NCBI GenBank assembly: GCA_018398765.1
Contig: JAHBMJ010000014.1
Location: 1 to 59,195 of the forward strand
Direction: 5' to 3'
Origin: Chromera velia
Taxonomy: Eukaryota
DNA: 59,195 bases
The translations under genes were made by a program, and so were the position numbers. Under the pieces are notes generated by a model. It saw only the letters and a program-made list of their open reading frames with translations, was not told the origin of the DNA and ran no database searches. Below, in pieces: positions 7,306 to 44,610 of this stretch (the stretch's first letter is position 1; every line of letters begins with the position of its first letter).

Positions 7306-7343
<38 letters not shown>

Positions 7344-12748: not shown

Positions 12749-12790
<42 letters not shown>

Positions 12791-13227: not shown

Positions 13228-13263
<36 letters not shown>

Positions 13264-24743: not shown

Positions 24744-26332
24744 ATGAAGGTGTTCAGCGTCATCGCATCGGTCTGTTTGGGCAGTGCGGTTGCTCAACAG
24801 TCGGTTTCCACAATCGACGCCCGAGAGGGCAACCTCTCCCTCGAGCACTCCTGCACGACTGGTGAGCTTATCTCGACCCTCCTTCCTCCCACATCACCAC
24901 CTGCACTCGTATCAACCATGCATCATGCATCCCCGCCCTCCCTGTGTGACTGCTGTGCTGCAGGTGTGAACAACCGTCAGAGCATGGTGGCCTACCTGAT
25001 GCAGAGCCTGCAGGACTTTGAGGAGGGCACCGCCGGACAGCCGTACACCTTTGTCTTCACGTCAGTCACATGCCCTCCCTATCTACGTGGGACATTGCCG
25101 TCTCCCCGTCTCCCTCCCACACAAAGCCTTCAGTCGACTTCCTTCCAACCTTTCAAAATTTCGCTCCATCGCGTGCCTCCTTGACTCCAGACATGAAGTC
25201 ACTTTGGTCTCAGCACACCAAGGCTTCCCTCTTTCCACCTTCTCTTCTTCGTTTCTCTACACACTGGTCTTTCAATTGACTCCGTCTACCAACCCTTTCA
25301 CATTTCCTCGCCAAACTCGACTTCTGTCTGTCTGTCCGTCTGTGCAGGTACGAAAAGGACGGCACTCAATACTGCCCCAAGAGACTCACCGTCGTGGATG
25401 ACAGAGTCGCCGCCGTCTCCAGCGTGTCTTCCTCTACCTCTGACACCCAGACCGACTCCCCCTCTGCTTCCGCGTCCCCTGCCTGCACTGAGCAAGCGGA
25501 CTCCGAGTACATGCAGATGACAGTGCCTGCCATCCTCAACCACATGCTGGCTGCTTCCGAGACCGCCTACAGGGTCTGTTGGGACTCAGCCACCAACGTA
25601 CAGACAGGAGAGAGGTCCTCTCGGGGATTTATCTCCCAGTCCAGCGAGAACGAAAAGGATGCCATCGCATTTGCTATCGATAACATCTCACCTCACACTC
25701 CCCAGAGCCAGGAGGAACAGGGACAGGCAGAAGCCCAAGAGGAGCAACCTGCGTCCGAGCCTCAGGGTACGACTTCAACTTCCACCCCCAATCTGAGAGG
25801 CTCTCCGTCCCCGGCTTCTACTGCGTCGGGCAACAGACGCCGACTTGAGTGGTGGCCTGCCGTTACTGGCGGTGTTGCGGGTGCACGTGCTGGGAATAAC
25901 TCCTACACTACAGCGGGGGGCGCGGCTCGCGGAGCTGCCAGAGGGGCGGCGCGGGGTTGCGTGTCTGGAGCCATCTGGGATGGGACCTGTGGCACCGGTG
26001 CGTTTGTTTTTTTTCTCTGCTGCATTTTTTGTTTCGCCTTGTATATCTTTCAGTGAGTGACGTTCACAACGGTTGGGTCATTGTGTCTCCTGAGTACTTT
26101 CAGAGATCGATCATGTATCATTGTTCCTCACTTCCTTCCTCCCTTTCTTTTCTTCCCTCCTTCCTGCCGCTGTTTTCCCAGTCTCCATCATTCGTTTGTA
26201 TTCCGTACTCTGTTCCTTCCTCTAATCTTCGTCCTGCTGTATCGTTTACTCCCTGCAGGTGCTGCCGAAGGGGCAACGACCGGAGCTGTGGCAGGAGGGA
26301 TCGCTGGAGGGAGTGGGCCCTACTACAGATAA
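24744..26332 (+). CDS. Secreted 312-aa precursor with RRRL site and C-terminal glycine-zipper peptide
   Basis: Exons 24744-24861, 24964-25060, 25348-25997 and 26259-26332 have canonical GT..AG ends and compatible phases (939 nt). N-terminus MKVFSVIASVCLGSAVAQ is signal-like. C-terminus is RRRL-EWWPAVTGGVAG...GAARGAARGAARGCVSGAIWDGTCGTGAAEGATTGAVAGGIAGGSGPYYR. Confidence 0.85.
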
Positions 26333-26999
26333 ATGAAGAAGACCTGTTCGCTCATGGAGAGAGACACAGGAATCTGACTTCTGTTGTTGTTGTTGTAAGA
26401 ATGGGGGTTGTTGAAAGGAAAACCTCGAGGGAAAAGGAAAACCGTCACAGAATGACCTGCCGTTTTGGGGGGTGACGCGACTCCTTATTATTATATGCTT
26501 GGTTTTTTTGTCTGCATGCACACGTGTTGCACTGGCACAAGACAGAGCACACGCCGGCGCGCTGTCTCCATGGAGGGTTGAGAAGAGGCTAGCTCGGTTG
26601 GGCTCGGTTAATTTTCCAGTCAGCAAGCAATTGCACGAGGATGTGACCTGGATGTCCGTCCTAGCTGCTGCTGGAAGAAGCGAGCGAAGCAAGTTGCGAC
26701 CTTGATCCAAGCCTGCATGGAGAGAGCGTGTGTGGATGAATCGTGTCAACATTGAGCGGTTGCGTGATCAGGTTGACAGATTCAAGACACATGGTTGATG
26801 AGAGCCTCAGATCAAGAGGAGCAGGGCCATATGCAGAATTGGTGCGGCATTGGTGCCTGCGTCTCTCGATCTTTCGGTCTTCGCCATCTCTCTCTGTGAA
26901 GTTTGTGTGGTGTTTGTGTGTGTTTACATCTTTTTCACGTAGGACTGCGCGGTCGAACCCTGGTTGGAACCCGTTGAGAAACTTGTACAAGCTAAGACA

Positions 27000-27860
27000 A
27001 GTTAAAAAACACTTTCATTAACTTGAATACATGCGGATGAACAGAAACGACTACATGCCATCATCATTTAGCTCATACCAGTGATACCACTTTAATAAAG
27101 TATTAGTCATATTATTACTTTTTTTTTTGCAATTCAAAAACACTTGTATTTAGTTTTAAACTAATATTATTCAGTTTTTCATACATTTTTTTGTATTACA
27201 TTTTTTTTTATCACAAACCTAGTCATATAAGCTCAGGATTGTATCATACTAAATTTAATTCATTGTAGTAAAATAAATAAAAATAAATTATAAATGCAAC
27301 TAATCAAAATACTTTATACAAACTTTCCTTTTTAAACAAAAAACATAATCAATGAAGTTATAAATCATAGACTGATTCACAGTTTAAAGCTTATAACCTT
27401 AAATTGCTGATCATCTAATTAATTGATAAGAATTAACTCCTAAAGACTTTATCATACAAGCTCTTTCTTAGAAAATAGAAGATATCTATGCACGATAGTG
27501 TACATAACTAAAGGGGGGGGCATTGACTTAAAGTTTGTTCCTAGCATCTGGCCTATGCGTCTTTCGTCTCTTCCTTCTGTCCTGGTTACTGCTCTCGCTG
27601 CTAGCTCTCTCTCTCATGCGCCTCTTACTTGACGTTCCTCCATCCGAATGCCTTCTTCGGCATTTGCTAAGTACTTCCTATCCCTGAGTCATGACCAGCG
27701 CACTGCCTATTCCGTGTACACAACTAAGACTTCAAAATCTAAAAAATCTACCTTCAACTTTAGAAATTTAACTTTAATTTATAATTGGCTAGATAAGTAA
27801 GTATAAAATATTTCCTACCACATGACCATATAAAATTTTTGTTTTTCAAAGTTGACTCTG
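27000..27860. other. AT/TpA-rich non-coding island, probable decayed repeat
   Basis: Abrupt composition shift, no ORFs in the track, and frequent TA/CTAG/TATA that are rare in the flanking genes. Confidence 0.6.
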
Positions 27861-27868
27861 CGAGTTGA

Positions 27869-30096
27869 TCACAGATCATATCTTCTTTTAATTTCAATCA
27901 TCGGAGAAGGCACTTGCTGGGCGATCCCCGTTTCTTCATTTTGATCAAAGTGGGAGATCTTGACTCCTCCTTCGGTCTCTCTGACGACCTGAGCAGTGGA
28001 GAGGGGCCCTGTGAGACCAGCCACCTTCCCCCATACAGGGTGGAGTCTGTACCTGGCAGCAATACGGAGGCCAAAGTATCGGAGCAGAACATCTCTGCAA
28101 ATAGAGCAAACAGGAAAATCGAGTCTCGGAAAGTCGGATGGAGCCATGCATCAATACCATGGGTTTCTCGATGCAGCGCAGAATGAATCAAGGAAATAGC
28201 CGTAAGCGCGTAAAGAGACATGCTGCAGCGCTGGAAGAGACACCAATTTAAAGGAAGGAGCAATGAAACCCGACAGAAACGGACACAAAAGCCTGAAAAG
28301 GACAGGACGCTTGACCTTGGAATGCATCAAAGTGCGATAAACGGCCCACATAGAAACGAAGAAAACACCAACTGACCGTACTGTCAGCATTCGAAAGTTT
28401 TGATAGAAAGTTGCATCAAAGCAGCTGAAGACGACGGCCACCATTTCCACCAGCATCGTCAATCTTCGCCACACTTCTTCCAAAGTGAACGCAAATCTGT
28501 ACTCATTCAGAGACATGTGCACCCAAAGAGGCTGCACTACCACCTGACTCTGCGCCCCCCCCGCTTTGGGGAGCAGACTGCTCTTCTCGCGTGGCTGAGG
28601 CACTAACCCGCCCCCTTGTTTTTGGGCGCCTTGCTTTGCCCTTTCGGCAACGTCCATCTTGACTGACAACTGCATTGCAGACCTTCGAGACTTTGCCAAC
28701 CCACCCCCCTGTACAGGTCCAGAGGGCGGTGTGGTCCCACTCGTCGGGGTGTGTTTGCCCTGAATGTGCTGTGCGTCCTCCCCTCCAGAGGTCCTTCGTG
28801 CATTTCCTGCTAACATCGACAACCGTCTACCGATAGAGGACCTCTTCATCACAGAGGGTGTCGGGACGTCCGCCTCTCCTGCAATGTCGCGAATGTGGTC
28901 CATTGTCGCAAAGGAAAATCCCGCTGGCGTCTCCCCTTCTGGCAACACGGTCCGATCAAGCGCATCCTCCCAATAGGAGAACAGAGGGCAATTACAGATC
29001 AGGCAACAGAAGATACCATACACAGCAGCCGCACCGTCATTCCACATCCCCTCCCACTGCTTCTGAAGGGACGACTCGAGCCCCGTCCTGCGAGCCCGCA
29101 GTCCCGGATTGGCCAGTTGAAGCCAGTCCTTGATGGGTAGTCTCTTTCCGGGGCCACTTCCAAAGGCAGACAGTCGGGAAGACATCTGAGCCTCGGTCTC
29201 CTCAGGCACCGACTGACCCCCTCCACCACCCGATGCGGGCCCCCCCGCTGGAGGGCCCTTCCCGGGAGCCCAGATACTCACCTTCCGGGGTGATAGCGCT
29301 CCGGGGGGACGGGGGGAAACACCTCCCCCACCCCCCTCAGTTGCCATGGACCCCCTCGCCGTTTGGATTTTGGGTAGCCCCACTGTGGCCAGACTCTGCC
29401 TTGTCGCTGTGGTCGTCTTTCTCCGATCTGCCAGGGCAGAGGGAGACGAGGGATCGTTGGTGTCGACCCCCTTCGTGTCGTCTTGGGGGGCACCGACGAC
29501 GGAGGCCCTCATTCTCCTGACAGACTTGATGGAGGGCACGCGTCTGCATTCCAGAAGAGAAGAGAGGAAATTCACCCACCCGCATGCACACAAGGACTCA
29601 AGGCGAAAAACGCGAAGTAACAAGGACATTGCGGCTAGTTGTCTGCCTCCTGCTTGGCTTAGCATGAGTTGTAGGCAAATTAAGTGACGAACGGGGAGGC
29701 TGACTGACCGCGTGACTGAGTGATAACAGAAAATAGCCAATCTGCTTAAGTGGCTGTAGGAAAGACTGGCAGACTGACAAACAAACAGGCAGGCTGTCTG
29801 TGTAAGTGTCCGTTTCAATGACGGAGAGACAGACTGACGATCTGGATCCCCTCTGGCCTTCTTCAGTCTCGTCTCCCCCTCCTCCCGACAGTTTGGCTGC
29901 GAAGAACTGGAGTGCCGTTGAGCGTCTGCTCTCCCCTCCGGTGGAGGAGGACCCTCTCTGGCCTGTCTTCTCGGGCTCTTTCTTTCCAGGAGGAAGAATG
30001 TCGATCGCCATCTCTGTCACTGTCCTCTTTGCCTGTGCAACCGTCAGCTTTCTGTACTTGGCGATGCCGTCATGCTCTCGGATCTGAAATTGGACC

Positions 30097-30142
<46 letters not shown>

Positions 30143-30724
30143 CGGGGGACAAATGCTTGACAGAAAGTAAATATCATGGACACTTTTTGTCTAAAGATAT
30201 TCATGAAAAGCTTCAACAGGGGGGGAGCACGTTCAATTGAGGGCAATGAGCACGTCCACCAGGATAGACGAGCGGAGAGGAGCCAATGAACTAAAAAAGC
30301 TGTAACACGATCGTTTCTTTCGAACTTCGACGTTCCCTCCCTGCCCTGCAAGAAAGGACAGGACAGGGCAGGGCAGGAAAAGACAGAGAGACAGACCTGG
30401 ACTGCTGCGAGGACGTCCAAGAGGCCGCACACAACCTCCGAGATGGAGGGAAACGAGGGGCCAAGCTCATCGACCAGAAGTCCCACCGGCTCGCTGTAAT
30501 ACCTGTGTGATCACAAACACATGGTCAGGTGCGGACACATGCATAGGTTGATAGGTGAATAGAATTTCTTTTCCTTCCTTTACTCTCCTTGTCTTCCTCC
30601 TGTCCTGCCTTCCTTCAATCCATCCTTTCCCCCTCCTCGTGTGTCTCACGTTGCCTCTTGATTTGTGCAGAGAAATGGCGAACAGAGAAAGCAGAAGTGA
30701 GGACAGAAGAAAACTTGCTGATTT

Positions 30725-30756
<32 letters not shown>

Positions 30757-33205
30757 CCCCTCTCCCACCCACCTACCCACTCACTTATGTTCTTTCATGG
30801 CCCTGTAGAAGGGTGACCGTCTGAATGCCGCCTTGGCCGAGAACACCCCCAGGGATTGGATCATTCGGATCTTCGCCCACCTCTGCTTCCCTGTCTTCCG
30901 ACGGTTCCGGGCCTGCTGGACCTGGGCCACCACCCACTGGTCAAGTTTCTGCAGACAGGCATTGATCGGCAATTTCTGTCTGTATACGGACAGACATGTA
31001 CAGACACGAAGAGACGAAAGAGGGTGGAGAGACAGTCCGTGTATGCACAGTTGGAGACTGAAATGAAATAGAAGACACTGGCATGCGTGCATTGAAGGAG
31101 ATAAATCTGCGTCTCTTTCAGTGGACCAAACAGAAATTGATCAAACAGCTATTATTCTTATCGCGAACAACCGAGAGACAAACACCCGGCCTGGCTGACC
31201 CACCCACCATCTCACCAACCGACCGACCGCAGGCTTCCATGAGGACTTCACAGTCATCCTCAAAATTCGGACGGGCACCCCCACAGCCGCAGAGGCGAAG
31301 TCGGGCATCCCATCGATGTCGCACCGGGTGCAGTCAAAGAACTTCGAGAGAGTCCCCTCAGCAGAAGCGTCACTGCCTCTTGTGGGCAGACACGCCCAGA
31401 TCTCTGCAGTGCAGGATCAGGTCAGCCCATTAGATTGAATTGTATGAAAATGAAATCTGCCAGCTGGGACAGGAAGGAAAGCACCGTCGAGACAGCGCTT
31501 AACCAATGACGGCTGTATCGGTCGACCAAAGTCCTCAAGTGAATCAGCGGGGGGAAACAGACAAGGTGATCGAAAAAGAACAACCAGAAAGGAAACGTTA
31601 GTTTTTCCCTTTTTTTGAAGAGGCGACGCAGCCAATAAACAGTGCTGTGCACACATGAAATCTTTTGTGAGTTCCCCCGACTGCATGCACCGAATGACAG
31701 AATGACTGACCTGTGTCCTCAGCCACGACTTGCATGAGAGTGATGAGGGTGTTCTTCATCTTCTCTCGGGTTCTCGAAGGATCTGGAAGAAAAATCAGGT
31801 CAAACGCGCCCCTCTCTAGAATCTGTGAGGGGGGCTGGTCCCGTCCTAACCCATCGAGTCTCCAGGGACTTCCACTTCCTCCCCCTGGAGCTCCTGACGG
31901 CGTTCCTCTGTCTTTCCCAGCGTGTCTGCCAGAAAGAGAGTTGGCATTCGATATGGCATTTCTGGGAGTTGTGTGCTCCTTCACGGCCTCTGCGTCCTGT
32001 ATGCTTGTGCCTAGGTCCAGTGCGACTAGTTTCAGAGTCCTAGGATCAACAGACTCCCCCAGGACCTTCGAGTCCTCGTGAAAGTACTCTATGCAGTCTG
32101 CCGTGTAGGGAGCCACCTTCTCATCAACCAGACAGGTCACGATGCCTCCATACACAGCAGCAACGAGGGAACAGAAGGCGGCACCTGTCGAGAAGCCAAG
32201 CACGTTCTTGTGTTCCACGTTCGGAAGAAATCCGTCTGACACCTCTGTGCCTGCCTCGATCACCTTCCCGAGCGCGCGGTCTGCCGGCCAGACCAGGGGG
32301 CACTCGTGGGAGAGCCAGCCGGGGGGACGGAATTCTCTGAATGCAGCATTTGATTGACCAAATTCTTGATGGTTGGTTGGTTCAGAGGAATTAAGGGGAG
32401 TGCATGAGAGGAGGACAGATTCAAGTATGGAGACGGTGGACGGCATTTGAAAGTATTGCCCCCTTGGTCGCCCCACAAGAGAAGCACTGAATGCTCGTGT
32501 CGTCCAGTCATTCACTTCCTCACTCACAGAAAGCCCGTGCTGACAGACAGAGAGCCACGGGGGTTCACACGCATGGATGGGGCATGAGAAGATTAAATCG
32601 GCAGGAAAAATGGGAAAGAAAAGGACAGAGACACATTGATTGAGAGAAGAAGTGACAGGGAATAAAGAAAGAAGCAGGCGATTGGGATTTCTCATCGGTA
32701 AGAACGGCGCATTCATCGATTTGCATACCAACGGCTTCGTGACAAAGCCCCTCCCGTCGACTGACTTAAAATGAAGGCTTCTGCTTGTGCCATGCAGACG
32801 GAAGATAATCGAGACAATGTTCTCCTCAGCCTCCTTCACCTGCTTTTGTTGCTGGGGATCCTCTGTCCCCGGACCTCCCGCATTCGTTCCCTTCCCTGCC
32901 GCCCCACCCGGCATATTTGTCGACAGAAGCGCCCCCGCCCCAGACATTTCTTTCTTCGGGGCCCCAAACCGACTCGTGAGGACACTGGACCAGAAAACCG
33001 AGCCCGGATTCTGCAGAGGCCCCAGTTCCCCTCCGAAGACGCTCATATTCCTGTTTACCCTGGAATCCCATCGCGACCTTGTTTCACGAGAGTGGGAGGA
33101 GGGGCGGGACAGCTCCCCACCCCCTCCTCCTCCGAGGATGGTCTTGTCTGAGGACGCGAAGACAACACCCCGGGGGGGTTTCGTCGGATCCAGAAAGGAA
33201 GTCAT
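27869..33205 (-). CDS. Multi-exon protein: divergent METTL21/Methyltransf_16-like domain plus low-complexity and hydrophobic C-terminal region
   Basis: ATG at 33205 (MTSFLDPTKPPRG). Motifs LVWPADRAL, KNVLGFSTGAAFCSLVAAVYGGIVTCL, LKLVALDLG and AFDLIFLPD fall in the order of the seven-beta-strand lysine methyltransferases (VWxAxxxL, VLELGSGTG, LDWG, FDLIL). Hydrophobic stretches lie in ORF 28151-29818. The probable last exon ends RRYDL* at 27869. Confidence 0.65.
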
Positions 33206-33914
33206 CGGCTCACGCACGAACAGAATGTAGGGACTGTTTTGTTAGTCTCTGTCTTTTGTATGATCGACTGAATTTCAGAGCTTCCGAAGAAACCCTTGCA
33301 GGAACGTTTGGCGCTGAGTCAGACTGTCTCTATCTGCACAATTGCACTGATTAAACGAGTGAGGAGATTCTTGCTAGAGGTTTACGAAGGCGAAAAAAGC
33401 GACGGCAGGAAAGTGCGCTCCTTTCCGCCGTCGGTGTGTTGCAGACAGAGCGATCCTGTCCACTGAGTGAAATTCGCCTTCGCAGGACGTGCACCTGCAC
33501 AACTCAGTAGAAGTCCACTGCATAAGCTTCGACAAGCTTACATGCAGCTGCTGACAGTTTGGGCGAAACAGACAGTTTAGCCTGATGTAGTTGAATCATT
33601 CTTCAAGGTCAGAAGATATCAGAAGCATGCTGGCGGGTGGTTGGCGTGTCTGTATCGGTGTGAAAAAAAAAAGAACACATGCAAAAAAAATACCGATACA
33701 TGCATGCATGCACACATGCATGCAGACACAATCAATTGACTGACTGACAGATTTAATAGTCGAAGTTCCATTCCACATTCTTCGATCAGTCACCCTTTTG
33801 GACCGTCCCGTCAACTCAGTAGCACAGCAAGTGGCACGTTTCTGTGCATACCTACAGAGCCAAACGTCGGTTGACCTTTTGAACTCCCAGAGAACAGTCG
33901 AGAGTCTCTCCACC

Positions 33915-35814
33915 ATGGCGTCTCTGCTCAGGACCGTTGCTGTCACTGCTGCACTCACGATCTGCCTAGCGAGGTCCTCTCCCTCTTCCTCTCCCTATGC
34001 TGGTGATCCTCAGCTCGACGTCCAGGGCCTTTCTCCGACGGGGAGTCTCAAAGATCTTCAACCGCGCATCGCAAAGAAATACGAGTTTTTTGTCAGTCGT
34101 TTCAGTTTGCATGAATCTACATGTATATATATACATATCCATTCGTGCATGCGCTCTGTATGGATACATATGGACTGCGTGGACCGGAGCCAAGAACCAT
34201 CTTGTTACACTGACCGTTTTATGGAAGGACGACTTGGTGTGCGAGAGTTCAAACACACATGCAGCTCACCAACGGAACCTCTTCCGTCATTTCCCGTGCA
34301 ATCTTCTCGAGGCCGGATTTTCCTCCTGCGTCCCCATATATATCCCTTTTTGTTACACCCTTGGTTTCCCTTTATTCTTTGGCCCACCCCTGCTTTTGGA
34401 CTGCATGCATGCTGTTTCCTTCTCCTGGCCTGCCCTTCTTCTGAGACCTCCCCCCCGCGTTTTCATATCCACTTTCCCAAAGCAACCATTCATGCACTTC
34501 TTCACGCATGCGGTACCTGCGCAGGCCCGACTCGGGTTCTCTCCAGAGGAGAGTAGAGCGCTCGTGCTCGCAAGAAGGCCTCACGGAGACCCCTCAGGTC
34601 CCACCTCAGTCGCTGCAGCTGCTGCCGACACTGTGGCCAGAAGCAACCCCTCCCGCTGTTTCTCCACCCCCCCCCCAACGCAGACAATAATCAAAAAGGC
34701 GTCTCTAGGCGAATGCCACCCAGGCCTGGTGGACGAGAGGCAGCTTGGGAAAGGAGCTTTTGGGCACGTATCTGCAGTGAAGCTCTCTTCCGATCCTCCT
34801 CCCGAGGACACAGCGGACCTCTACTCAGGTCTGGAGGAGGGAAGGACCTACGCACTCAAAACCTTTAACGCAGGGGGGTGGATTGCACCCACGGGAGAGG
34901 TCGAATTTCCCGCAGCACTCGCGCTAGAGAGTGCTCTCAGAGAGATCTGCGTGGGTGAAGACGCGAGCAAGGATGGGGTCGGTCCGAAGGTCTATGGCAG
35001 CTGGATTTGCACGGTTCCGCCGCCTCTGCCGAACCAGTCTGAGAAGAATTACGCTTTCATTTTGATGGAAGAGCTTCAAACTTCCTTATTTTCCGCTCTG
35101 CAAGAGGCCGAGCAGAAGAATCTGATTGTGACCCCCGATGCGCAGAAAAGCGTTTTGGGACTGCAGGAAAAATTCTTTGCAGATGGGTACATCCAAGTTG
35201 ACAATCATTTTGGAAATTGCGGCATCGACAAGGAAGGTCGCATGAAGTTGTTGGACTTTGGGATTGTCCTAGATACCAACTGGAAGCCTGAATTACCCTC
35301 GTCAGAGCAAGACTTGGCGGTTCTATCGAAACTGCAGGCATCCCTGAAGTCGTATGCTGGCATTCTATCGTTTCAAATACAGAAAACGCCCTACTATAGG
35401 CACGGAGACCATAGCGAGGACAACATTGCAGAAAGCGTGTATGAAGAGCTGAATAAGTTGGAGAAACTCCGCGGGTACCAGTGGATGGCTCACGCAGCGT
35501 TTCTGCGTCGGGCCGTGTATCCCTTTCCTCCAAACAAACAGATGGGTGGTCGACTCGATTCTGGAAAAGCTGGTCTTGAAGGCTTCTCAACAACAGCAGC
35601 AGCAGAAGAAGAAAGAGAAGAAGAAGAACAACGATTGAATTCAGCCAAACGGCAGGGCGAAGGTGAAGTAGAAGAAGAAAAGTTGGAGCCGATCCAAATA
35701 AAAGTAGAAGTAGAGGAGGCAGTGGAGGAAAAGAAAAAGAAAACTACCCTTCAACTGAGGGGATCATCCGCAGGAGGATTTTCATATGCTTTCGATCACT
35801 TAGTTCATGATTGA
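33915..35814 (+). CDS. Secreted atypical protein-kinase-like enzyme (~488 aa, 2 exons)
   Basis: Exon 1 (33915-34091) starts MASLLRTVAVTAALTICLA, signal-like. A phase-0 intron joins it to exon 2 (34525-35814), which contains LGKGAFGHV, YALK, REI, IQVDNHFGN and LLDFG. Confidence 0.85.
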
Positions 35815-36745
35815 CATATAAACAATAGTCATATATAATACGTGCATATTACCCTTATAGCTTGTATACATTTAGCAATTTTAATAGCAAACAAGCAGAT
35901 TGCATGAGGGAACCCTGGGCTAGAGTCGCTCGACCAATGGCTAGACCCTGGGAAGATACTATTTTTGAGTCAAATTTGGACGAATATTCTGCATCGACTT
36001 TTAGGCCGATGCGGGCCGGTAAATTTGCAGATGTCAAGAATCAAGGGCCAAACAAACATTGGGGTCATTTAAAAAAAATTTTGTGACCGCTCTAGTGACC
36101 GTTCAGGTCGCAAAGTATCTTAGGGGGGGGAGGTTCACCCTGTGACTCACGATTCCTAGCACGATTCAGCCTTCGGATTCAGGTGACTTAACCATGTTCT
36201 TAACCGGCAGTCACACTGCATCGTGCACCGATGGCAAAAAATTGCCAGTGACTCAAATAAAACATAAATAATGATTAAACTTAAATAATTAATTGAGACT
36301 GATCGATCTAGACATTAATTAATATTATAATTGAGTTAATTTATTCCTTAACTTGAAAATTGTTCAAAAAATCAATTTTTTTTTTTAAACTAAGAAAGTC
36401 TGGAGAGACAGTATCTTAAGGATGTGTTTCATAGAAATTGTTTAAATTTGTTTTTTTCTGAATAAAATATTGATGATTATTGATGATGGCTAAGATTTAG
36501 GCTAGGATAATGATGAAGCTCTAGTAGATGACTTCGATGATATGAGATTAAATCTTAAATCTAGCAATACAAAATCTCAAGCCACTAGTAAGATTATATA
36601 GACAACCTATATAACGCATTCATGGCGGAGGGAGGAAGATTAGGAGGAATAATAGTATCTGGGTAAAATGACTTATAAACTGTTTATTGCAGGTTTTTTT
36701 TCTAAATATTGCTCGAAATATTGTAACGCAAAAGTTGCGACAAAA
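35815..36745. other. AT/TpA-rich island between convergent genes
   Basis: Composition shift, many CTAG/TATA/TTAA, no convincing ORF. Confidence 0.6.
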
Positions 36746-36760
36746 TGAACAGAACGCGAC

Positions 36761-38062
36761 TCACGGTCGGAGTTGATCAATCGATTCGTGTAAAACATAC
36801 TTGCCTACAAATCTGTTGCCCTTTCGAAGATTTTCCTCCGACCACATTGGTTGCAGGTTCGAGAAATGCAACCTTGCAATTTGGGTCTCCGGATTCGGTT
36901 TCTTTCCGTCCGGTCCCGGGAACTTTATGGGTGTGATATGATCGACGTGCCAGTGAGTCCCATAGTTCTCCCACGACATCCCGGGGTTGTTATGAAAGTT
37001 GTTCATCTCCAGGTGCGCCTTCAGCTGCTCAAAGGAACAGCCAATATACTGAACTGTACGTTTTTGATAAGCACTGAGAGAAGGATTCTTTATGACGGAT
37101 AGCTTCTCCCGAATCGAAGAGAGGTGTTTCCAGACGGTCCTTCGAGCTCCGTGAGTCAATCGAAATACTATGTCTTCTTGGTAGCGCAACCTTCTCTGGG
37201 TATTGTAACGCTGCCTTTTCTCTTGAAATGCAGGATTCTCTTTCTGACAGACTGCGCAGTGACCGCGCTGGCGACCATGCTCGCAGATTCCACTCCCTCC
37301 GCAGTCCCTACACTGACTGCGCCTGCGTCTGTGTTCACAAAAATTCTTCCCGCCGCACTCTCTGCAATCACCGTGCCTGCGACCATGCTCACACAGTCCT
37401 TTCCCGCCGCACTCTTTACAATACCTTCGCTGACGGCCGTGTTCGCAAATGCTTTTCCCACCGCACTCTCTGCAAAAACTTCGCTGACGTCCATGCACGC
37501 AAATTCCTTTCCCTCCACAGTCCTTGCACTGGTTACGTTGACGACCGTGTTCACAGATATACTTCCCACCACACTCTCTGCACTGATTGAGGTGGCGCCC
37601 ATGCTCACACAGTCCTTTTCCACCGCACTCGATGCAATACCTTCGCTGGCGGCCGTGTTCGCACATACTCGTCCCACCACACTCCCTACAAAAATTGCGC
37701 TGGCGTCCATGCACGCAAATGCTTTTTCCACCACAGTCCTTGCATTGGTGGCGCTGGCGGCCGTGTTCGCAGATATTTCTACCCCCACATTCCTTGCACA
37801 TGTGACGTTGGCGTCCATGCTCACATATTCCTTTGCCTCCGCAATCTTTGCAGTAGTACGCCTTCTTGCCGTGTATGCAAACGGCCTTTGGTTTTACTGC
37901 AGTTGTCGGAAAGACAGGGGCCGGTCCAGAATTCTGTGCTACATTCCTGCTTTCACCTGCTTCTTTTGCTTTAAATTTCTCCGGATTGTATCCCGGTGTC
38001 AGACACACAGAAGCCACAGGGGAGAACGCACGGCTCTGGAAGGCGGTATGGAGAGCTAACAT
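36761..38062 (-). CDS. Tandem zinc-binding repeat protein fused to C-terminal HNH endonuclease (433 aa from ATG 38062; open frame extends to 38425)
   Basis: Single exon. Twelve 18-aa xCxHGRxRxxCxxCGGxx repeats are followed by a basic helix (KRQRYNTQRRLRY) and YIGCSFEQLKAHL..GMSWENYGTHWHVDHITP..LHFSNLQPMWSEENLRKGN. The latter is the DH..N..N pattern of phage/giant-virus HNH homing-type endonucleases. Confidence 0.9.
   Translation of the reverse strand: MLALHTAFQSRAFSPVASVCLTPGYNPEKFKAKEAGESRNVAQNSGPAPVFPTTAVKPKAVCIHGKKAYYCKDCGGKGICEHGRQRHMCKECGGRNICEHGRQRHQCKDCGGKSICVHGRQRNFCRECGGTSMCEHGRQRRYCIECGGKGLCEHGRHLNQCRECGGKYICEHGRQRNQCKDCGGKGICVHGRQRSFCRECGGKSICEHGRQRRYCKECGGKGLCEHGRRHGDCRECGGKNFCEHRRRRSQCRDCGGSGICEHGRQRGHCAVCQKENPAFQEKRQRYNTQRRLRYQEDIVFRLTHGARRTVWKHLSSIREKLSVIKNPSLSAYQKRTVQYIGCSFEQLKAHLEMNNFHNNPGMSWENYGTHWHVDHITPIKFPGPDGKKPNPETQIARLHFSNLQPMWSEENLRKGNRFVGKYVLHESIDQLRP
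37235..37882 (-). repeat. Coding tandem repeat, 12 x 54 nt (18-aa Cys/His units)
   Basis: Exact 54-nt period from VCIHGKKAYYCKDCGGKG to ICEHGRQRGHCAVCQKEN. Confidence 0.95.
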
Positions 38063-38179
38063 CCAGGCAGAGTGAGGAAAGTTGGCGGTACCCGGGTAAG
38101 TAAAAAGTCCCCGCAGCAGAGAGGCGCGTTTGCTTGACTGAGGGATTGAGACCTCGGGTGAAAGGGAACGAAGGGACGG

Positions 38180-38314
38180 ATACCTGCCTACAACTCCGTT
38201 TCCCTTCCGAAGATTTTCATCCGACAACATCGGCTGCAGGTTCAAGAAGTGCAACCGCGTTATTTGAGTATCCGCCTTTAGCTTCTCTCCGTCTGGTCCC
38301 AGGAAGTTGATTGG
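38180..38314 (-). pseudogene. Truncated second copy of the HNH C-terminal tail
   Basis: PINFLGPDGEKLKADTQITRLHFLNLQPMLSDENLRKGNGVVGRY is 31/45 identical by hand alignment to the tail at 36797-36931. It lacks the upstream WHVDH motif. Confidence 0.85.
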
Positions 38315-39339
38315 TAACCCAATCACACTGAGACACCCTGTACGCCTACAGCTTCTGGTGCTGCGAAGCAGCGTTTGAAGCGCACTCTGCATCAGACCAC
38401 AGATGCGGGCAGCTGTACCAGGCAAATCCTTGCAGTCTCAGTCTGTCAATATCCTGTACAAAGCCGACTTCCTAATGCCGGCAAGGGTTCACGAGGATGC
38501 AAGGACACGTGAGTCAGCGCAGCTTTTTTCATTCTTGTGTGGGGTTTCAGAATGAAATCCAGGGCGGACCCTCTCCAGACTGAATGAGTTGTAACCACTA
38601 CAAATAGAGTCCCAGGTAACAGATCTGTGTAACTTGCATGATCTGTGTAGCTCCCAAGTATATCAGCCTTTGCATTTCAACTGAATGTTGCTGTGCAGGA
38701 CGCCTGCCACCGTTTCTTGTCAGAGTTTGTTGAATCGATACATGCAGGCTGTAGCATTTATATTCGTGTTGAATTGACTGCAACACATGCATGCAATGCA
38801 ACAATGCAACACATGCATGCAAACTTGGACTTTTATTGAGGCGTTGCTTCTCGCGTGGATCACTGCGTGCATGCATGGCTCGGTCACATGCACTGCAATT
38901 CCTTAAAGCATGCGGGGAAGCAGCTATATATAGGCGTGGCTCAGCCTTAGATTTGCAAGCGAGGGAGTCCGAACTCAGCCAAAGCTATCATACGCCAGTA
39001 GCTCGGCAACGCGCTCCTATATATGCCCTCTCGTTCAATCAAGGCTCGGCGATGATCGCGCAGTACGAGTTATGTTACACGGATTGCCAAAAGCGCTCTG
39101 CCACACAGCCTCGGCCCATCTTCCGAAAGCTCTAATGCTGAATCTACACGAAGCTTTCTCCATGCACCTACAACAAACACAACGTGTCGGCAACGTCGGT
39201 GGCCGACCTTTTGAGTTAGCTTGACTTTCTCCTGCATTGATCGCGACGGTCTGTCAGCTCTCCCGGCTGGTGTATCTGCGGAAGTAGTGGATTCTTCAAT
39301 CGACTTTGTAATCGTTGCTTTTGATAGAAGTGGTCTGAA

Positions 39340-39912
39340 ATGTCTAAGGACACGAAAAGTGTGCAACTGGCGGCGGGCTGCCAGGAGGTGTATATGCTAA
39401 AGCTGTCCCAGGGTTCAAATTCTCATGTTGTGCGAGGCCAAGGTGCCGGGACCGCCATTGGCGCGGGAGTGGGTCTTGCGGTCGACGTTGTCACTCTTGG
39501 ACTGACGGGGGGCCTCGGCACAATGCTCGGAGGGCCTCAGTACTGGGAAGGGCTGAAGGGGAAAAGTTCGGGGGAGATTCGATCAGTGAGGTCCAGTTCG
39601 GCCGGTGCATGCGCAACTGCCTGGGTGAGGGCTGTTAACGAAAGGGCTGTAGGGTGCGAGACTGAACGTGCACTGGATGGGGTGTATGTAAGCTTCACCT
39701 CACCGTCACCTCAGGCCTCCCGTTGCATGGTGTGTATCGACATGCATCGTCGGAATCATTTCGGAATGGCGGCCGGGCTGCAAGCCTTCCTGCATGATGT
39801 TGCCACTGACTTGGTGAGAGCTCCCGGGACTCAATTTTCACGAGCCTTTGGAGTTTCTCTTGAAATCCTCGACTTTCCGGTCTACCATGACTATGCAGAA
39901 AAGTTCTATTAA
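39340..39912 (+). CDS. Hypothetical 190-aa single-exon protein with glycine-zipper hydrophobic hairpin
   Basis: ATG-to-TAA ORF containing GQGAGTAIGAGVGLAVDVVTLGLTGGLGTMLGG. No other recognisable motif. Confidence 0.45.
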   Translation: MSKDTKSVQLAAGCQEVYMLKLSQGSNSHVVRGQGAGTAIGAGVGLAVDVVTLGLTGGLGTMLGGPQYWEGLKGKSSGEIRSVRSSSAGACATAWVRAVNERAVGCETERALDGVYVSFTSPSPQASRCMVCIDMHRRNHFGMAAGLQAFLHDVATDLVRAPGTQFSRAFGVSLEILDFPVYHDYAEKFY

Positions 39913-40289
39913 AGAATGGTAGGGGAAATGTTTGCTTTTTCTCTGAAACAATGAGTTTGCAAGCGGTGTGCTTTGAATCTCCAAACAGGGGGACGTTGGG
40001 ATCAAGCCTTTGGAAGAAAAAGGTTTGCGGCCTCCTGAAAAAAAGAGTGATGCAAAAACAAAGGAGGGACCAGAATGACTTTTTGCGTTAAGATTTGCTT
40101 CAGCTCAATACATGACCGCCAGTCTCCAGCTTCATTCCGACAGCATAATTTGGGTTTGAATTTTGGGGCATTCTGCATGAGTGATTTTCCGGGCATTCAG
40201 GTTACGAATCAGGTGTGACTCTTCTTCTTTGGAAGTTTGTTTGCACAGAAAGTAACGTCCAAAGCAATGCGCGAAGCAGTTCACCGGAT

Positions 40290-42065
40290 TGAGGCGTATT
40301 ATACGTACTATTACGTGACGTCCATATACTCTACACGTACGGGAAGAATTATTAATATATGCTACTACTAAGCGTAATCATCACTGTGTAGTGTATAAGC
40401 CGCCCGTTGAAGACCATGCTAGGGACCATGTTAGCTTTATGATAGCCTTCATTCACATTTCATGATTGTTTATTTGACAGATAAAAATCCTATAGTTATA
40501 TAATCTTTAAGCTAGTCTTTAAGTTGGTTTAATTCGATTGTAGCGTCTCTGAACATTCTGAGCTAATTTATCAGAGTTTATCAAAGTTGCGACCCAATAA
40601 TTAAAAAACAAGTTTATAGACGTATGTGGCTGTTTAATTATGTTAAACAGAAGTGGTCAAACGTCTTCCATAAATTTAATGTCTTTATGAGAGCCTTGAG
40701 TCAGATTTTTGGGAGTTTCTTCCCTGTGGAGATTCCAGATTTTCTGTCTAGCCTTCTGTTTTTTATCTTTTTTTATCTTCAGTTGCCAAAGCCGTCTCTT
40801 TCCAGTGTCATTCGTTCTTTGTAGCCCTCTGCTGCCTTGCAATCTAGCTTGCAATGGCAGCTGGCGTTCCTGAAAAACTTGCTCGACTCTTATAGAAATT
40901 GGTATAGAAGGAGATAGATGAAGTTCAACTAGAGTCGCTATTTTGACTCTGGCAGGCTAGCCTAAGGCTCTTCACCTGACTTGAACCAAAAATTGAGAAA
41001 CACAAAAACTAATTTAAACGGGTTGTGATAATTTTTATGATGAGTTCAAATCACAGCAGAAGCAATCAACTAAATAGTTACATTAAATGACTCCAATAAT
41101 ATAATACTAACGGTAAGCCAAAGGAGCTAACCAATTTATTAAATTAGTTGAGAAGCAACTCAGGCTTTGGCGGGTCCTGAAAGTAACGTCTGATACCGTG
41201 ACCCTAGCTTAGGCTAGAGCTTGGGGTAGGGAACACCCTGCAGTTTTAGCTCTGGAGAGTCAGTGAAGACAGATTGTCATTGAGATGAACATCCGGGAAA
41301 AGCCTGGTACTTTGTGTAGAACCAATCAATCACTGGCAATAAATCAATCAACATACAGTAAGTTTCAACTATAGTATATATTATACTAGATATTATAAAG
41401 CCTACTACTCATACCTTTTATGGAACTAATCAATCAACTTTTAAATAAATCACTCAGATTATCACTGGCAATCCACATACAGTAAGTTTGAAGCGACCTC
41501 TATATAATAAAATGGCAACAGTGCTCTAGCTACTAGTAAGCCACCACTAAATCACTTAATAATAATAATAATTATACTTACTCTACAAATTTAAACTTTA
41601 ACTTTAAAATCCCCCCGAACCCTTTACTTTTTTTTTTCTTTTTCAGTCAAACAACCGTGACTGTTGTTCAAGTATTACACAGGTGTTGTTCATATGTATT
41701 GCACAACTGTTGTTAAGTGTTGTTGAAGGTAAAAAAAGTAAAAAGAAAAAAAAAATCTTCTCACATCACTTATTTTTTTTCTTTAGCCGACACTTAGATA
41801 AGACTACAGAACGGTGCAAGTTGGCGCACAGCAGTAAACCTATATAGCACTGGCCTAGGCACTGGCTAGCAGTGGACTACGGAGGAACTTGAAACATAAA
41901 TTATAATCCTAATCCTACTATTACGTATTATGATATATTAAAGTGACACTCTGACGTGACGCTCATGAACTAGCTCATGAATTGATTTAGGAATTGTATG
42001 ATTCAATGTGCTGGATACAATAACAGTATAAACGACCGGTACAGTTGTTATACGTTGTTAGTTAC
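40290..42065. other. AT/TpA-rich island, probable decayed mobile element(s)
   Basis: Composition shift and stop-rich sequence. It contains a degenerate direct repeat ATCACTGGCAAT..ACATACAGTAAGTTT at ~41329-41365 and ~41461-41489. Confidence 0.55.
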
Positions 42066-42069
42066 ATCG

Positions 42070-44610
42070 CTATTTATTAGTTGATGTGGTGGCAGGCGTT
42101 GCGATGGCACCTTCCATCACCCTCCACAAACGCAAACTCCCGTCTCGCCCTCCGGAAAGGGTCATCCTCCCGTCAGCAGACAACGCACAAGCAAACACAG
42201 GGTCAGACCCCACAACCACAGACGTGGAGCCCGTTGTCCCAGGCTCTCTAGGTCCACTTCCACCCCCCACCGCACCCGACTGCCCCCCCCCGTCGCCACC
42301 CCCCCCCGGAAACGTGACAGTTAATGGGACTTCCTTGCTTCCATAGTGCTGTATCACCTCGCCCCTAAACACATCCCATAATTTCACTACACCGTCTAAA
42401 CCTGCAGACACCAACGCGAGAGGAAGCTCTGAGTCCTCTCCCTCCCGCAAGTCACGCCCCCCTCCCGACAACCTTCCCGCCCCACCGCTGTGAGTACTCG
42501 ACGATGAAGAGAGAGACTGCGGTTGATGCTGCCCCCCTGCCACACTTCCTAAAGAGGCACCGTCGCCCCCCTTCTCCCAATCAACACGCGACACCGTATG
42601 CATTTGATGATCTCTATGCCCCCCCCGATTCTCTCTGCCCCCCCTGACCTCCCCCCCACTCCCAGAAGAGGAAGAGGAGCTTCCTCCCGAATGACCACGG
42701 GGGTGGAGCCTCCCTCCATACCCCTCAAAAAACCGACAACTAGTGACCCAACTCAAATGACCCCCCCCTCCGCCCAACTCACGAACACACCTCCACGGGT
42801 CCCCCCCAATGGTAGTACTGCGCGCGTCCCACAACCGAATAATTCCGTCTGCTCCCCCTGTGGCCAGAATCTGGCAACACGGAGTCCAGGCAAGAGCCTG
42901 CACGGGCGTCCCATCGGGTATTGCCCGCAAGACCTGGTGGCAGTGCCCGTCTGGGAGTCTGTGGATAGACACCATTCCCGTCTGTGTCGCACAGGCCAGA
43001 AGCACAAAGTTATGGGACGGCTTGGCAACTGTAATCTTGGCCGTCCACCACTCATTCAGCAGAGATGGCACGTTCAGGTGATAGTCCTCCACCGTGTTCA
43101 CCTGGGGGCCCTGGGTGGCACCACTGCCGCTGCCAGGGGGGGCAGGCGTGGGCTCTGCCTGCTGATTCGCATGGGGCTGGTTTTTGAGGGACCAGATGCG
43201 AACAGAGTGCCCTGCAGGCAGGTGGCATGGATGCAGTGAGTAAGTCAGTCCGGCAGGCAGAGGGACAGATTGTATGACCTCTTTTTTTCTTTTCTTTTTT
43301 CCTTCTTTTTCCTTTCAGATGGACAGAGAGTGATACAGCAAATATATTTATTTTTGTCCCTGCTTTCCTTCAGATAGACAGGCTATATGGTTTCTTTCCC
43401 TCATTTTCTTCATGTACACAACGGAAAAGAAATAAAAGAAAGCAAGAAAGACAAAAGAACATCACGACAACTTAGACAAAGTGGGAAGGGGCCCGAAGGG
43501 TGAGAGTTAAGCGCCCCTTGCCTTTCAACCTCCCGACAGGACTTCACGTGATCAATTGTTCGTCACACGCTACTATCCTGCTGCTTCCACTCAAGACAAG
43601 AGAGAGAGAGAGAGAGAGAGAGAAGGAAGAAGACAAGAAAAAACAAAAAGAACAGACAGACAGCCAGACAGACAGAGAGACAGGTGCGTGCCAATAAAGG
43701 GGCTAGCAAGATCCATTCTTTTTCCGTTTGGAAGAAGAGACGAGACTAGAGGCTCAATGGGAAGGCCTTGGAAAGGCACCTGCACAGTCTGTCTTCTTTC
43801 TTTCTTTCTTCTTTCCCCCCCCCCCCCCCCCCTCTCTCTCCCCTCCCTCTCTCTCCTACACGCCCGCACCCACCCACACACCCCACCCCCCACCCCACCC
43901 CACCCCCCACACACGCACGCACGGACACTCGATCTATCCCGAGATATCCAAACAGATTCAAACCGGTCGCCCGGTCGTGCAGCTTTCAAAGGATTTGCGC
44001 ACCACCATCGGGGACCCCCTCATTCGTTTCCCTTTCATGAGCCTCTTTCCTTCCCACCCCTCCCTTCTCTCTCCCTCCCCGCCTTTCCCTCATCGCTACC
44101 CCTTTTTCTCTTCGCTTGGCTTCCTCTTGCCAGCTTCTCCCCCTTCTTCTCTTCGGCAAACTTTCTTCCCCCCAAAGTAATGGCTCCACTTTCTTCTCCT
44201 ATCCCACAATCTTTCAAACTGGCACCCTTTCCCCTTATCCCCATACCTTGGGCCGTGATCACGAACAGTCGGTGGACAAAGAAATGAACCGAGGGCGCGC
44301 CAGGGTGGTTGTGGGCCTTCCAGCACGCCACGATGGACCCGAACCCGATCTTCAAGTCGTACACGTACACGGCACCCCCCACAGCACCACACACAATACG
44401 GGTGCCCTCCGGTGCAAACGCCACATACTCCACTGCACTTGTGTGTTTCCACACTCTCTCCGTCTTGCAGGTCTCCACATTCCACAAACGGACGGTGACG
44501 TCTCCGGCAGTCACTATGAAATTCCCGTGGGGGGAGACGTCCAACCACACCAACGAACCCGTGTGCCCCTTCAAATAGTGCTTGTCACTGCGACCGAGGG
44601 CGTTCCCCAT
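42070..44610 (-). CDS. WD40-repeat protein, possibly N-myristoylated
   Basis: Exon 1 reads MGNALGRS..LKGHTGSLVWLDVSPHGNFIVTAGDVTVRLWNV. The last exon (~43212-42070) has GHSVRIWSL, LATGGADGIIRLWD, LVSAGLDGVVKLWD and LSGGRDGSLRLW. Internal exons are unresolved. Confidence 0.9.

What the first reader, a model, noticed from the sequence alone, without database searches (positions are those of the whole stretch)
36761..38062. Natural modular nuclease candidate: 12 zinc-binding repeats with a variable dipeptide fused to an HNH endonuclease
Seen: an intronless ORF with twelve 18-aa units of consensus ICEHGRQRxxCKECGGxx, then a basic helix and an apparently intact HNH domain (WHVDH..NLQP..EENLRKGN). 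The Cys/His ligands are invariant, while the two residues before the CxxC vary: YY, HM, HQ, NF, RY, NQ, NQ, SF, RY, GD, SQ, GH. Known: HNH homing endonucleases of the I-HmuI type pair a catalytic HNH module with separate DNA-recognition domains, and TALEs and C2H2 fingers encode specificity in a few variable residues per repeat. I recall this repeat and HNH subtype from hypothetical giant-virus/algal proteins but know of no characterisation. Inference: an Arg-rich repeat array may read DNA with a per-repeat code and target the nuclease, like a natural TALEN/ZFN or a selfish homing element.
Basis: partly seen in the sequence, partly recalled or inferred. Interest (0 to 1): 0.88.

Follow-up and report, generated by a model that had tools for sequence, protein, structure and literature searches.

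The report
Algal zinc-repeat DNA nicker, viral origin
A transcribed gene of a likely alga joins twelve tiny predicted zinc-binding repeats to a predicted DNA-nicking domain, and in its giant-virus relatives each repeat likely reads two DNA letters, so the family would be a very compact natural counterpart of engineered zinc-finger nucleases, although no binding or cutting has been measured and no target was found for this copy.

Summary
Observation confirmed (minus strand): twelve 18-aa CxH-x6-CxxC units, a long basic helix and an HNH domain with intact D374/H375/N402/N411. RNA contigs cover the gene unspliced; the array is under purifying selection. Named closest relatives are Chromera velia paralogues, one clade inside virus-like repeat+HNH proteins. 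The repeat occurs in 2,449 proteins, mostly ahead of a different nuclease, and matches no Pfam family or solved fold. Hypervariable positions are 7, 9 and 10, not a dipeptide. In 19 giant-virus relatives beside the capsid gene, arrays read backwards at two bases per unit put 90% of arginines at 10 and 7 on G in the facing gene end (null 76±3%); five new loci fit (84% vs 73%). Against: unbiased motif search failed, other loci show no signal, no target is predictable for this copy. The scan noted the viral code (e1-8336367) and a doubled copy in this genome (e1-10699770) before. Verdict: virus-derived, likely sequence-directed nickase; the code is supported for relatives, untested here.

The parts
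36761..38062 (-).
   Evidence: RNA contigs cover it in unspliced pieces
36761..38425 (-). Whole open frame (554 codons from TTG; ATGs at 38392, 38230 and 38062). The true start is not settled
   Evidence: one RNA contig runs unspliced over 37765-38316
38180..38315 (-). In-frame half copy of the HNH domain (PINF...NLQP..DENLRKGN), lacking the DH pair; likely remnant of a first array-HNH module
   Evidence: 79% nt identity to 36797-36932; dN 0.15, dS 0.72 against the main copy; same layout in named paralogues
37235..37882 (-). Twelve 18-aa CxH-x6-CxxC units (aa 61-276), predicted zinc-binding; residues 7/9/10: KYY QHM QHQ QNF QRY HNQ QNQ QSF QRY RGD RSQ QGH
   Evidence: AlphaFold2 mean pLDDT 96; no PDB or Pfam match
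37343..37774 (-). Old 216-nt block duplication: units 3-6 (37559-37774) and units 7-10 (37343-37558)
   Evidence: dN 0.05-0.06 against dS 0.6 to saturated for unit pairs 3/7, 4/8 and 5/9; pair 6/10 has diverged (dN 0.23, dS 0.42)
37097..37234 (-). Basic two-helix linker, aa 277-322
   Evidence: helices in the AlphaFold2 model
36800..37048 (-). HNH/ββα-metal nuclease domain, aa 339-421; D374 and H375 (36938-36943), N402 (36857-36859), N411 (36830-36832)
   Evidence: D, H, N, N invariant in 117 aligned rows; phrog_1035 'endonuclease VII' E 3.6e-8; weak fold matches to CAD, PacI and Cas9 HNH
36694..38337 (.). Stretch covered by contigs of RNA runs X3, X4 and X6 (one study, another allele, depth 3-6)
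   Evidence: X3, X4 and X5 show GT-AG splice joints in a neighbouring gene, so they are RNA

Best explanation
The gene is a transcribed, intronless member of a likely virus-derived family in a Chromera-type alga, whose twelve predicted zinc-binding units likely wrap along DNA and read about two base pairs each, mainly through residues 10 and 7, so that the intact C-terminal HNH domain would nick one strand beside a site of roughly 24 bp. SHOWN: anatomy, intact catalytic residues, transcription, purifying selection on the array, one Chromera clade inside virus-like repeat+HNH proteins, and an arginine-on-guanine match at 2 nt per unit (array read C to N along 5' to 3') in giant-virus relatives that carry another nuclease. 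INFERRED: zinc and DNA binding; that the geometry carries over to the HNH class and to this copy; nicking rather than double-strand cutting (HNH monomers such as I-HmuI nick, PMC3239194); descent from free-standing homing nucleases. This copy likely lost most of a first array-HNH module, which left the half HNH. For its present role I put nick-driven duplication of a selfish family (about 45%) slightly above a function kept by the host, such as defence or recombination (about 40%).
For: Anatomy and catalytic residues. Transcription. dN/dS about 0.04-0.1 in 3 of 4 duplicated unit pairs, with 7 and 10 unchanged, and 0.21 between the HNH copies. 11 named Chromera paralogues among 20 hits; 19 Chromera-type HNH rows form one clade (SH-aLRT 94) inside a clade (96) holding 38 of the 39 repeat-bearing rows. 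42 of 139 new HNH relatives carry the repeat. The array sits on unrelated nucleases, and nucleases 91-93% identical can carry wholly different 7/9/10 strings. Code test on 19 capsid-adjacent loci in 6 groups: 0.899 of R on G against permuted units 0.757±0.027 (maximum 0.846 of 400), 0.703 at the far gene end, best of 16 geometries. Five newly fetched loci: 0.843 against 0.728±0.033, P 0.006. Pooled: R10 on G 68/75 vs non-R 18/93; R7 on G 64/74 vs non-R 12/94; in group A, R7 of unit 1 sits on G in 6 of 6 and non-R on A in 4 of 4. The groups lie apart in the nuclease tree.
Against: No target can be predicted for this copy: best window site 12.3 bits against 13.0±0.8 for permuted units; the array has only two arginines at the coding positions. 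Unbiased Gibbs sampling did not beat its null in any geometry; I found the geometry by eye, after a hint from e1-8336367. 63 loci outside the training set show only a marginal excess of sites near the gene (9.5 vs 5.9±2.1 within 300 nt, none within 500 nt, none with the R-only rule), and 2 of those 63 (L160, L173) are near-copies of training loci. The five new loci belong to known groups, and one rival geometry scores 0.835 on them. Only R to G is clear; other residues are degenerate, and R7 sits on T in 9 of 74 cases. All code evidence comes from the PD-(D/E)xK-like class, none from HNH fusions. Nine coding differences in the RNA allele split 3 synonymous to 6 replacement, as neutral change would (low-depth contigs). 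Fold matches of the HNH are weak (Z at most 5.5). No terminal repeats, intron or empty site were found.
Confidence: 0.6

Rival explanations
1. The array binds DNA mainly through backbone contacts (K/R at 6, 8, 12) with little base reading in this copy; specificity, if any, comes from the HNH domain and helix, and the variable residues drift.
For: Residue 7 is Q in 8 of 12 units and the code gives almost no information for this array; no signal at most viral loci away from capsid genes; in I-Bth0305I the accessory DNA-binding region is largely non-specific (PMC3239194); e1-10699770 read its relatives as arguing against a simple code.
Against: Residues 7 and 10 are kept across saturated synonymous change inside this gene; R-on-G match and residue-base covariation in viral relatives; Chromera arrays vary at the same positions 7, 9, 10.
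Confidence: 0.2
2. The gene is a decaying relic of a viral transfer: once under selection, now drifting, and transcribed at background level.
For: The first module is truncated; allele differences are neutral-like, 3 synonymous to 6 replacement; RNA depth is low; several paralogue gene models are read out of frame or are damaged.
Against: A 554-codon open frame with all 48 ligands and all catalytic residues intact; no stop or frameshift in the covered parts of the second allele, whereas the neighbouring ORF at 39340-39912 has a net 7-nt insertion there; none of the 6 replacements touches a ligand, position 7/9/10 or the active site.
Confidence: 0.12
3. The array binds RNA or protein, and the HNH acts on RNA or on a DNA structure such as a junction or nick.
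For: The best profile match of the nuclease is a family labelled endonuclease VII; Cys/His zinc repeats often bind RNA (recalled); 18 of the top 120 arrays have no nuclease recognised by my motifs.
Against: In group B the matched sites extend into non-coding DNA upstream of the capsid start codon; the partner domains are DNA-nuclease folds; the DHDH, conserved R and CxxC motifs of endonuclease VII/DHHRN (PMC6083498) are absent.
Confidence: 0.08

Closest known systems
Phage HNH homing endonucleases with separate DNA-binding modules (I-HmuI; free-standing MobE type)
   Same: ββα-metal domain with a DH pair and a distal N, joined to an extended accessory module; viral relatives are free-standing genes next to conserved genes, and their arrays match the facing end of that gene, as in intronless homing (PMC6083498).
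   Different: The nuclease is C-terminal; the module is a 12-fold 18-aa Cys3His repeat, not a NUMOD; the gene is nuclear, in a eukaryote, in no intron or intein; no PDB sequence match even with a 117-row profile, Pfam HNH hit in only 2 of 117 members.
I-Bth0305I / EDxHD (Vsr-like) homing endonucleases (PMC3239194)
   Same: N-terminal DNA-binding repeats with a C-terminal nuclease; the commonest viral partner of this repeat has a PD..ExDE..H motif of that general type.
   Different: This gene carries HNH instead. The EDxHD label for the viral partner is borrowed from earlier scan notes; a profile of 36 such proteins found no PDB relative.
C2H2 zinc-finger arrays and TALE repeats (ZFN, TALEN) - features recalled
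   Same: Tandem units with a fixed frame and a few variable positions; arginine reads guanine; the array runs antiparallel to the strand it reads, as C2H2 arrays do; new strings arise by unit duplication and shuffling.
   Different: 18 aa and about 2 bp per unit (C2H2 28 aa and 3 bp; TALE 34 aa and 1 bp); Cys-His-Cys-Cys ligands; little regular secondary structure in the model; no fold match; naturally fused to nucleases.
MIGE (major interspersed genomic element) of Mimiviridae; endonuclease cargo of Mariner/Fanzor elements
   Same: Multi-copy zinc-finger ORFs of giant viruses with unknown mode of spread (bioRxiv 10.1101/299784); several viral relatives lie beside a DDE transposase, like the endonucleases in PGv-1-type elements (PMC3627910).
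   Different: I could not read the MIGE source papers and did not test identity; the passages read describe neither an 18-aa repeat nor a code.

Membership tests
HNH / ββα-metal nuclease superfamily | Catalytic DH pair, structural N and distal metal-binding N/H | tested here: met
   D374, H375, N402, N411 present; invariant in 117 aligned rows; D40/H41/N62 roles in endonuclease VII from PMC6083498
HNH / ββα-metal nuclease superfamily | ββα fold | tested here: met
   The model has strand-strand-helix at the motifs, pLDDT about 90; ranks 1, 2 and 4 of the wide search are CAD (Z 5.5, rmsd 3.9, 118 aa), PacI (4.9) and a type II restriction endonuclease, 4l0k (4.1); Foldseek lists Cas9 HNH, colicin E7 and Gme HNH, all with E above 0.8. 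Each match is weak; together they agree.
HNH / ββα-metal nuclease superfamily | Metal-dependent DNA cleavage | not testable with these tools
   needs an assay
Homing endonucleases (I-HmuI / free-standing type) | Encoded in an intron or intein, or as an optional gene between conserved genes with an empty allele in relatives | tested here: inconclusive
   No intron or intein context and no Rfam hit in 26000-43000; both alleles seen carry the gene; no genome or relative was available. Viral relatives fit the free-standing pattern.
Homing endonucleases (I-HmuI / free-standing type) | Long target at or near its own insertion site | tested here: inconclusive
   No site above the permuted null in the window, but the code has almost no information for this array; met statistically for capsid-adjacent viral relatives
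Homing endonucleases (I-HmuI type) | NUMOD / I-HmuI-like DNA-binding domains | tested here: not met
   No Pfam family on P0001 above cut-off; the accessory module is the 18-aa repeat
DHHRN / endonuclease VII family (F-CphI) | DHDH flanked by CxxC pairs, with a conserved R | tested here: not met
   The sequence reads VDHITP and has no CxxC in the nuclease domain, against the family pattern in PMC6083498
C2H2 zinc-finger arrays | CxxC..HxxxH ββα finger of about 28 aa | tested here: not met
   The unit is CxH-x6-CxxC, 18 aa; no C2H2 Pfam hit
TALE-type repeats | 34-aa helical repeat, adjacent di-residue, one base per repeat | tested here: not met
   18-aa Cys/His unit; variable set 7/9/10; with the R-to-G rule, one-base geometries gave 1.5 and 2.9 near sites against 1.9 expected
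Modular per-repeat DNA readers (works-like claim) | Fixed positions covary with target bases in register | tested here: inconclusive
   Met for R to G in viral relatives; not found by unbiased search; untested for HNH fusions and for this copy
Modular per-repeat DNA readers (works-like claim) | Variable residues face the DNA bases | not testable with these tools
   No model coordinates or protein-DNA folding were available; DSSP puts 7 on a β-bridge and 8-10 in a short helical turn
MIGE of Mimiviridae | Homology to the MIGE ORF plus its conserved upstream non-coding piece | not tested
   Source papers not held

The most novel reading that the evidence does not exclude
The 18-aa CxH-x6-CxxC repeat is an undescribed class of natural modular DNA reader beside C2H2 fingers and TALEs: about 2 bp per 18 residues, set by residues 10 and 7, reshuffled by giant viruses in front of several nuclease folds to retarget them. 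An alga captured the array-HNH version and amplified it into one- and two-headed nickases and nuclease-free binders with their own target repertoire.
Probability: 0.5. Interest if true: 0.92.

Novelty: new variant of a known kind. Interest (0 to 1): 0.74.

Why it matters
If the code holds, this is a programmable DNA-binding scaffold of about 9 residues per base pair, as compact as C2H2 fingers and about four times more compact than TALEs, with thousands of natural arrays and, beside capsid genes, natural array-target pairs from which to learn it. It would give a function to a large unnamed protein family of giant viruses and algae that databases label 'DnaJ central domain' or 'hypothetical', and it would show a giant-virus selfish nuclease becoming an expressed nuclear gene family. 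The claim is cheap to test: one SELEX and one nicking assay.

Tried and rejected
No whole genome was held, so no genome-wide census, target search or empty-site search was possible. Pfam, PDB sequence and Foldseek/VIA searches gave no match for the array; this does not prove a new fold. Unbiased Gibbs sampling of a residue-to-base code failed: with intergenic flanks it fell into AT-rich runs, with ORFs only it did not beat permuted arrays. The learned code did not place sites near the gene at most non-capsid loci, gave nothing clear at HNH-fused loci, which are few and on short contigs, and nothing in the window. Leave-one-group-out ranks (1-48 of 6,500-16,000 in 19 of 20 loci; 328 for L188, whose capsid start was not at hand) are partly circular and I give them little weight. 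Mobile-element ends: no convincing inverted or direct repeats flank the gene; no Rfam family nearby. A search for relatives longer than 758 aa found one fused gene model only (weak evidence). Membership in endonuclease VII/DHHRN, C2H2 and TALE families was rejected on motifs. The MIGE lead could not be followed. No run was on record as RNA; I showed RNA status by splice joints instead. The AT-rich flanks have no RNA-contig cover, which is not evidence of silence. The Atlas did not answer for P0001; the answer is for the paralogue P0006. Complex prediction was not used. Literature searches that found no description of this repeat, its code or the Chromera family: (open-licence PMC and bioRxiv only; supplements not read).

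Full report
1. OBSERVATION. window:36761-38062 read on the minus strand gives 433 aa without a stop. Tandem Repeats Finder finds periods 54, 108 and 216 (score 641). A basic two-helix linker and a domain with WHVDH, NLQP and EENLRKGN follow.

2. SURROUNDINGS AND EXPRESSION. The window is a microsatellite-rich eukaryotic sequence of about 55% GC; the gene (about 50-55% GC) lies between AT-rich stretches. Neighbours are an atypical-kinase-like ORF, an unnamed ORF and WD40 exons. No terminal repeats or Rfam family flank it. No genome is held. Contigs of runs X3, X4 and X6 (one study, an allele about 1% different) cover 36694-38337 in unspliced pieces at depth 3-6, one of them bridging the half HNH and the array. 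X3, X4 and X5 show five joints with CT..AC ends, which are GT-AG introns of a minus-strand neighbour, so these runs are RNA. Of 9 coding differences 3 are synonymous and 6 are replacements, the neutral expectation for transitions (33%); none touches a ligand, position 7/9/10 or the catalytic residues. These are low-depth contigs.

3. SELECTION INSIDE THE GENE. Units 3-6 and 7-10 are an old 216-nt duplication. Pairs 3/7, 4/8 and 5/9 have dN 0.05-0.06 against dS 0.6, 1.4 and saturated; residues 7 and 10 are identical in all three pairs, residue 9 changed in two. Pair 6/10 has diverged (dN 0.23, dS 0.42). Half HNH against main HNH: dN 0.15, dS 0.72.

4. FAMILY. With the HNH part as query, 11 of 20 hits are named Chromera velia proteins at 53-73% identity; the host identity is inferred from this. 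Several have HNH-linker-array-HNH layouts, and several gene models read the array out of frame. The HNH belongs to a very large family (28,169 clusters at E up to 0.001); 42 of the 139 new top hits carry 1-12 repeats. In a quick tree of 91 rows (78 columns; 33 of 66 repeat-less rows left out; rows chosen by a motif pattern) the 19 Chromera-type rows form one clade (SH-aLRT 94) inside a clade (96) that holds 38 of 39 repeat-bearing rows. Repeat+HNH genes occur free-standing on viral and metagenome contigs. With the array as query there are 2,449 hits; of the 120 listed, 99 end in a PD-(D/E)xK-like domain, 3 in HNH and 18 in neither by my motifs, one of them (P0084) with a Vsr-like tail by eye. 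The structure library and the Atlas point to Nucleocytoviricota and green algae and give automatic names only (for paralogue P0006). Direction virus to alga is inferred from this nesting and from the lack of introns; the tree is rooted at its midpoint only.

5. STRUCTURE. AlphaFold2 gives the array mean pLDDT 96: a β-bridge between positions 1 and 7, a helical turn at 8-10, otherwise loops. No PDB sequence, Pfam or fold match was found. The last four units plus HNH model at pLDDT 90; D374, H375, N402 and N411 are invariant in 117 rows; the best fold matches are ββα nucleases but weak (CAD Z 5.5, rmsd 3.9, 118 aa; PacI 4.9).

6. IS THERE A CODE? In 912 internal units of 99 proteins the entropy peaks are position 10 (3.8 bits), 7 (3.3) and 9 (2.9); 18 follows at 2.6; 66 Chromera units show the same peaks. 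Nucleases 91-93% identical may carry wholly different 7/9/10 strings, while others at 86% keep the string. Of 93 distinct loci with 4 or more units, 34 held a major capsid gene (Pfam-confirmed on one member). Unbiased Gibbs sampling did not beat its null. By eye I then saw that arrays read C to N at 2 nt per unit match the capsid end that faces the nuclease gene, residue 10 on the first base and residue 7 on the second. With the single chemical rule R to G, this was the best of 42 variants for placing the top site near the gene (7.1 of 15 against 1.9 expected). On 19 loci in six groups (L188 dropped because its capsid start was not in the ORF at hand), 0.899 of arginines fell on G against 0.757±0.027 for permuted units (maximum 0.846 in 400), 0.703 at the far end of the same genes, and 0.68-0.82 for 15 other geometries; single groups reached P below 0.01 only in A and D. 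The groups lie apart in the nuclease tree (capsid adjacency needs 9 changes, 6 forced by starred branches). I fixed the geometry in a note written in the same turn as three new scans. These gave 84 loci, 31 new strings and 5 capsid-adjacent ones, which all fell in the predicted register: 0.843 against 0.728±0.033, P 0.006; they belong to groups A and C, and one rival geometry scored 0.835. Pooled over 23 sites and 168 units (L178 re-registered to its group's position; L188 and L196 left out): R10 on G 68/75 against 18/93 for other residues, R7 on G 64/74 against 12/94; excess mutual information 0.52 and 0.64 bits against 0.16 and 0.25 for residue 9 (partly circular, because registers were chosen with 7 and 10). 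The cleanest non-circular item: in group A, residue 7 of unit 1 is R in the 6 loci with G at its base (Val codon) and not R in the 4 loci with A (Ile codon); these loci are related, so this is fewer than ten independent events. Against: 63 other loci show at most a marginal excess of near sites (9.5 against 5.9±2.1 within 300 nt; none within 500 nt or with R only), and two of them are near-copies of training loci; other residues are degenerate; HNH-fused loci were too few and too short to test; and P0001, with only two arginines at coding positions, gives no target in the window (12.3 against 13.0±0.8 bits).

7. MECHANISM. Most likely each unit binds one zinc by Cys-His-Cys-Cys, the chain wraps along DNA with K/R at 6, 8 and 12 on the backbone (inferred), residues 10 and 7 read two adjacent bases, and the C-terminal HNH nicks 5' of the read strand's site. 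In start-facing viral groups that geometry puts the nuclease upstream of the capsid ATG, toward the insertion, as expected for intronless homing (definition from PMC6083498). In the alga the family has been duplicated, doubled and truncated. Whether it still spreads by its own nicks or serves the host is open. Confidence in the molecular mechanism is 0.6; the rivals are non-specific binding (0.2), decaying relic (0.12) and RNA or structure substrates (0.08).

8. KNOWN SYSTEMS. It works like I-HmuI-type and I-Bth0305I-type modular homing nucleases and, in its array, like a C2H2 finger chain. It is a member of the HNH superfamily by motif and predicted fold; it is not a C2H2, TALE, NUMOD or DHHRN protein; homing-endonuclease membership of this copy is inconclusive. 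Papers: passages of bioRxiv 10.1101/299784, PMC3627910, PMC9651163, PMC3239194 and PMC6083498; search listings only; the two MIGE source papers were not held; no supplements were read, and these may list the family. C2H2 and TALE parameters, and the labels Vsr-like and Fanzor for viral neighbours, are recalled; EDxHD is borrowed from earlier notes. Searches found no description of this repeat, its code or the Chromera family.

9. VERDICT. A real, expressed, selected gene of an undescribed repeat-nuclease family; a new variant of a known kind, whose repeat may be a new class of modular DNA reader (probability 0.5). Interest 0.74: the code is directly testable and replicated in silico here for arginine, but the evidence is from viral relatives, not from this copy.

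Noticed in passing
window 27513-27713: A 200-nt element in AT-rich DNA that is present at high depth (115-300) in contigs of all four runs laid, with many different flanks: a dispersed, transcribed SINE-like repeat. No Rfam match.
   Followed up: partly
window 41600-41790: Another high-copy short repeat (DNA depth about 240, 24-nt tandem units) with many loose ends in DNA and RNA contigs.
   Followed up: no
window 39340-39912 (+): Intronless 190-aa ORF, transcribed (RNA contigs about 38981-40318), but the other allele carries a net 7-nt insertion at 39533-39541; weak DUF3482 hit only.
   Followed up: no
window 33997-35814 (+): Long ORF with an atypical (ABC1-like) kinase hit, convergent with the nuclease gene.
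   Followed up: no
window 57775-58565: 37-nt inverted repeat pair (95%) about 790 nt apart in AT-rich DNA, possibly a MITE.
   Followed up: no
L021, L022, L024-L026, L038, L039, L142, L147 (e.g. L026:1387-2418, L024:4557-6431): Repeat nucleases with very different arrays ride as cargo between a DDE transposase (Pfam DDE_3) and a 624-aa ORF that I take to be Fanzor (recalled; no Pfam hit), like PGv-1-type elements (PMC3627910).
   Followed up: partly
L002/L003:641-1972, L004:1420-3024, L192: Orthologous repeat nucleases upstream of the A32-like packaging ATPase with 13 or 18 units: a natural five-unit expansion with the other triplets largely kept; a good second set for the code.
   Followed up: partly
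L006:1964-2338: A phage ORF with one or two such repeats ahead of a DHFH..RG..C motif that resembles endonuclease VII by eye (no PHROG hit): perhaps a further nuclease partner.
   Followed up: partly
proteins P0048, P0050, P0051, P0069, P0092, P0126: Chromera velia proteins with 10-14 repeats and no nuclease; three are named CBM20-domain proteins by the source: candidates for host transcription factors built from the same array.
   Followed up: no
proteins P0003, P0004, P0005, P0008, P0011, P0144: Public Chromera gene models translate the repeat region in a wrong frame (runs such as VNTVEG..AESAEG), which hides the family from domain searches.
   Followed up: partly
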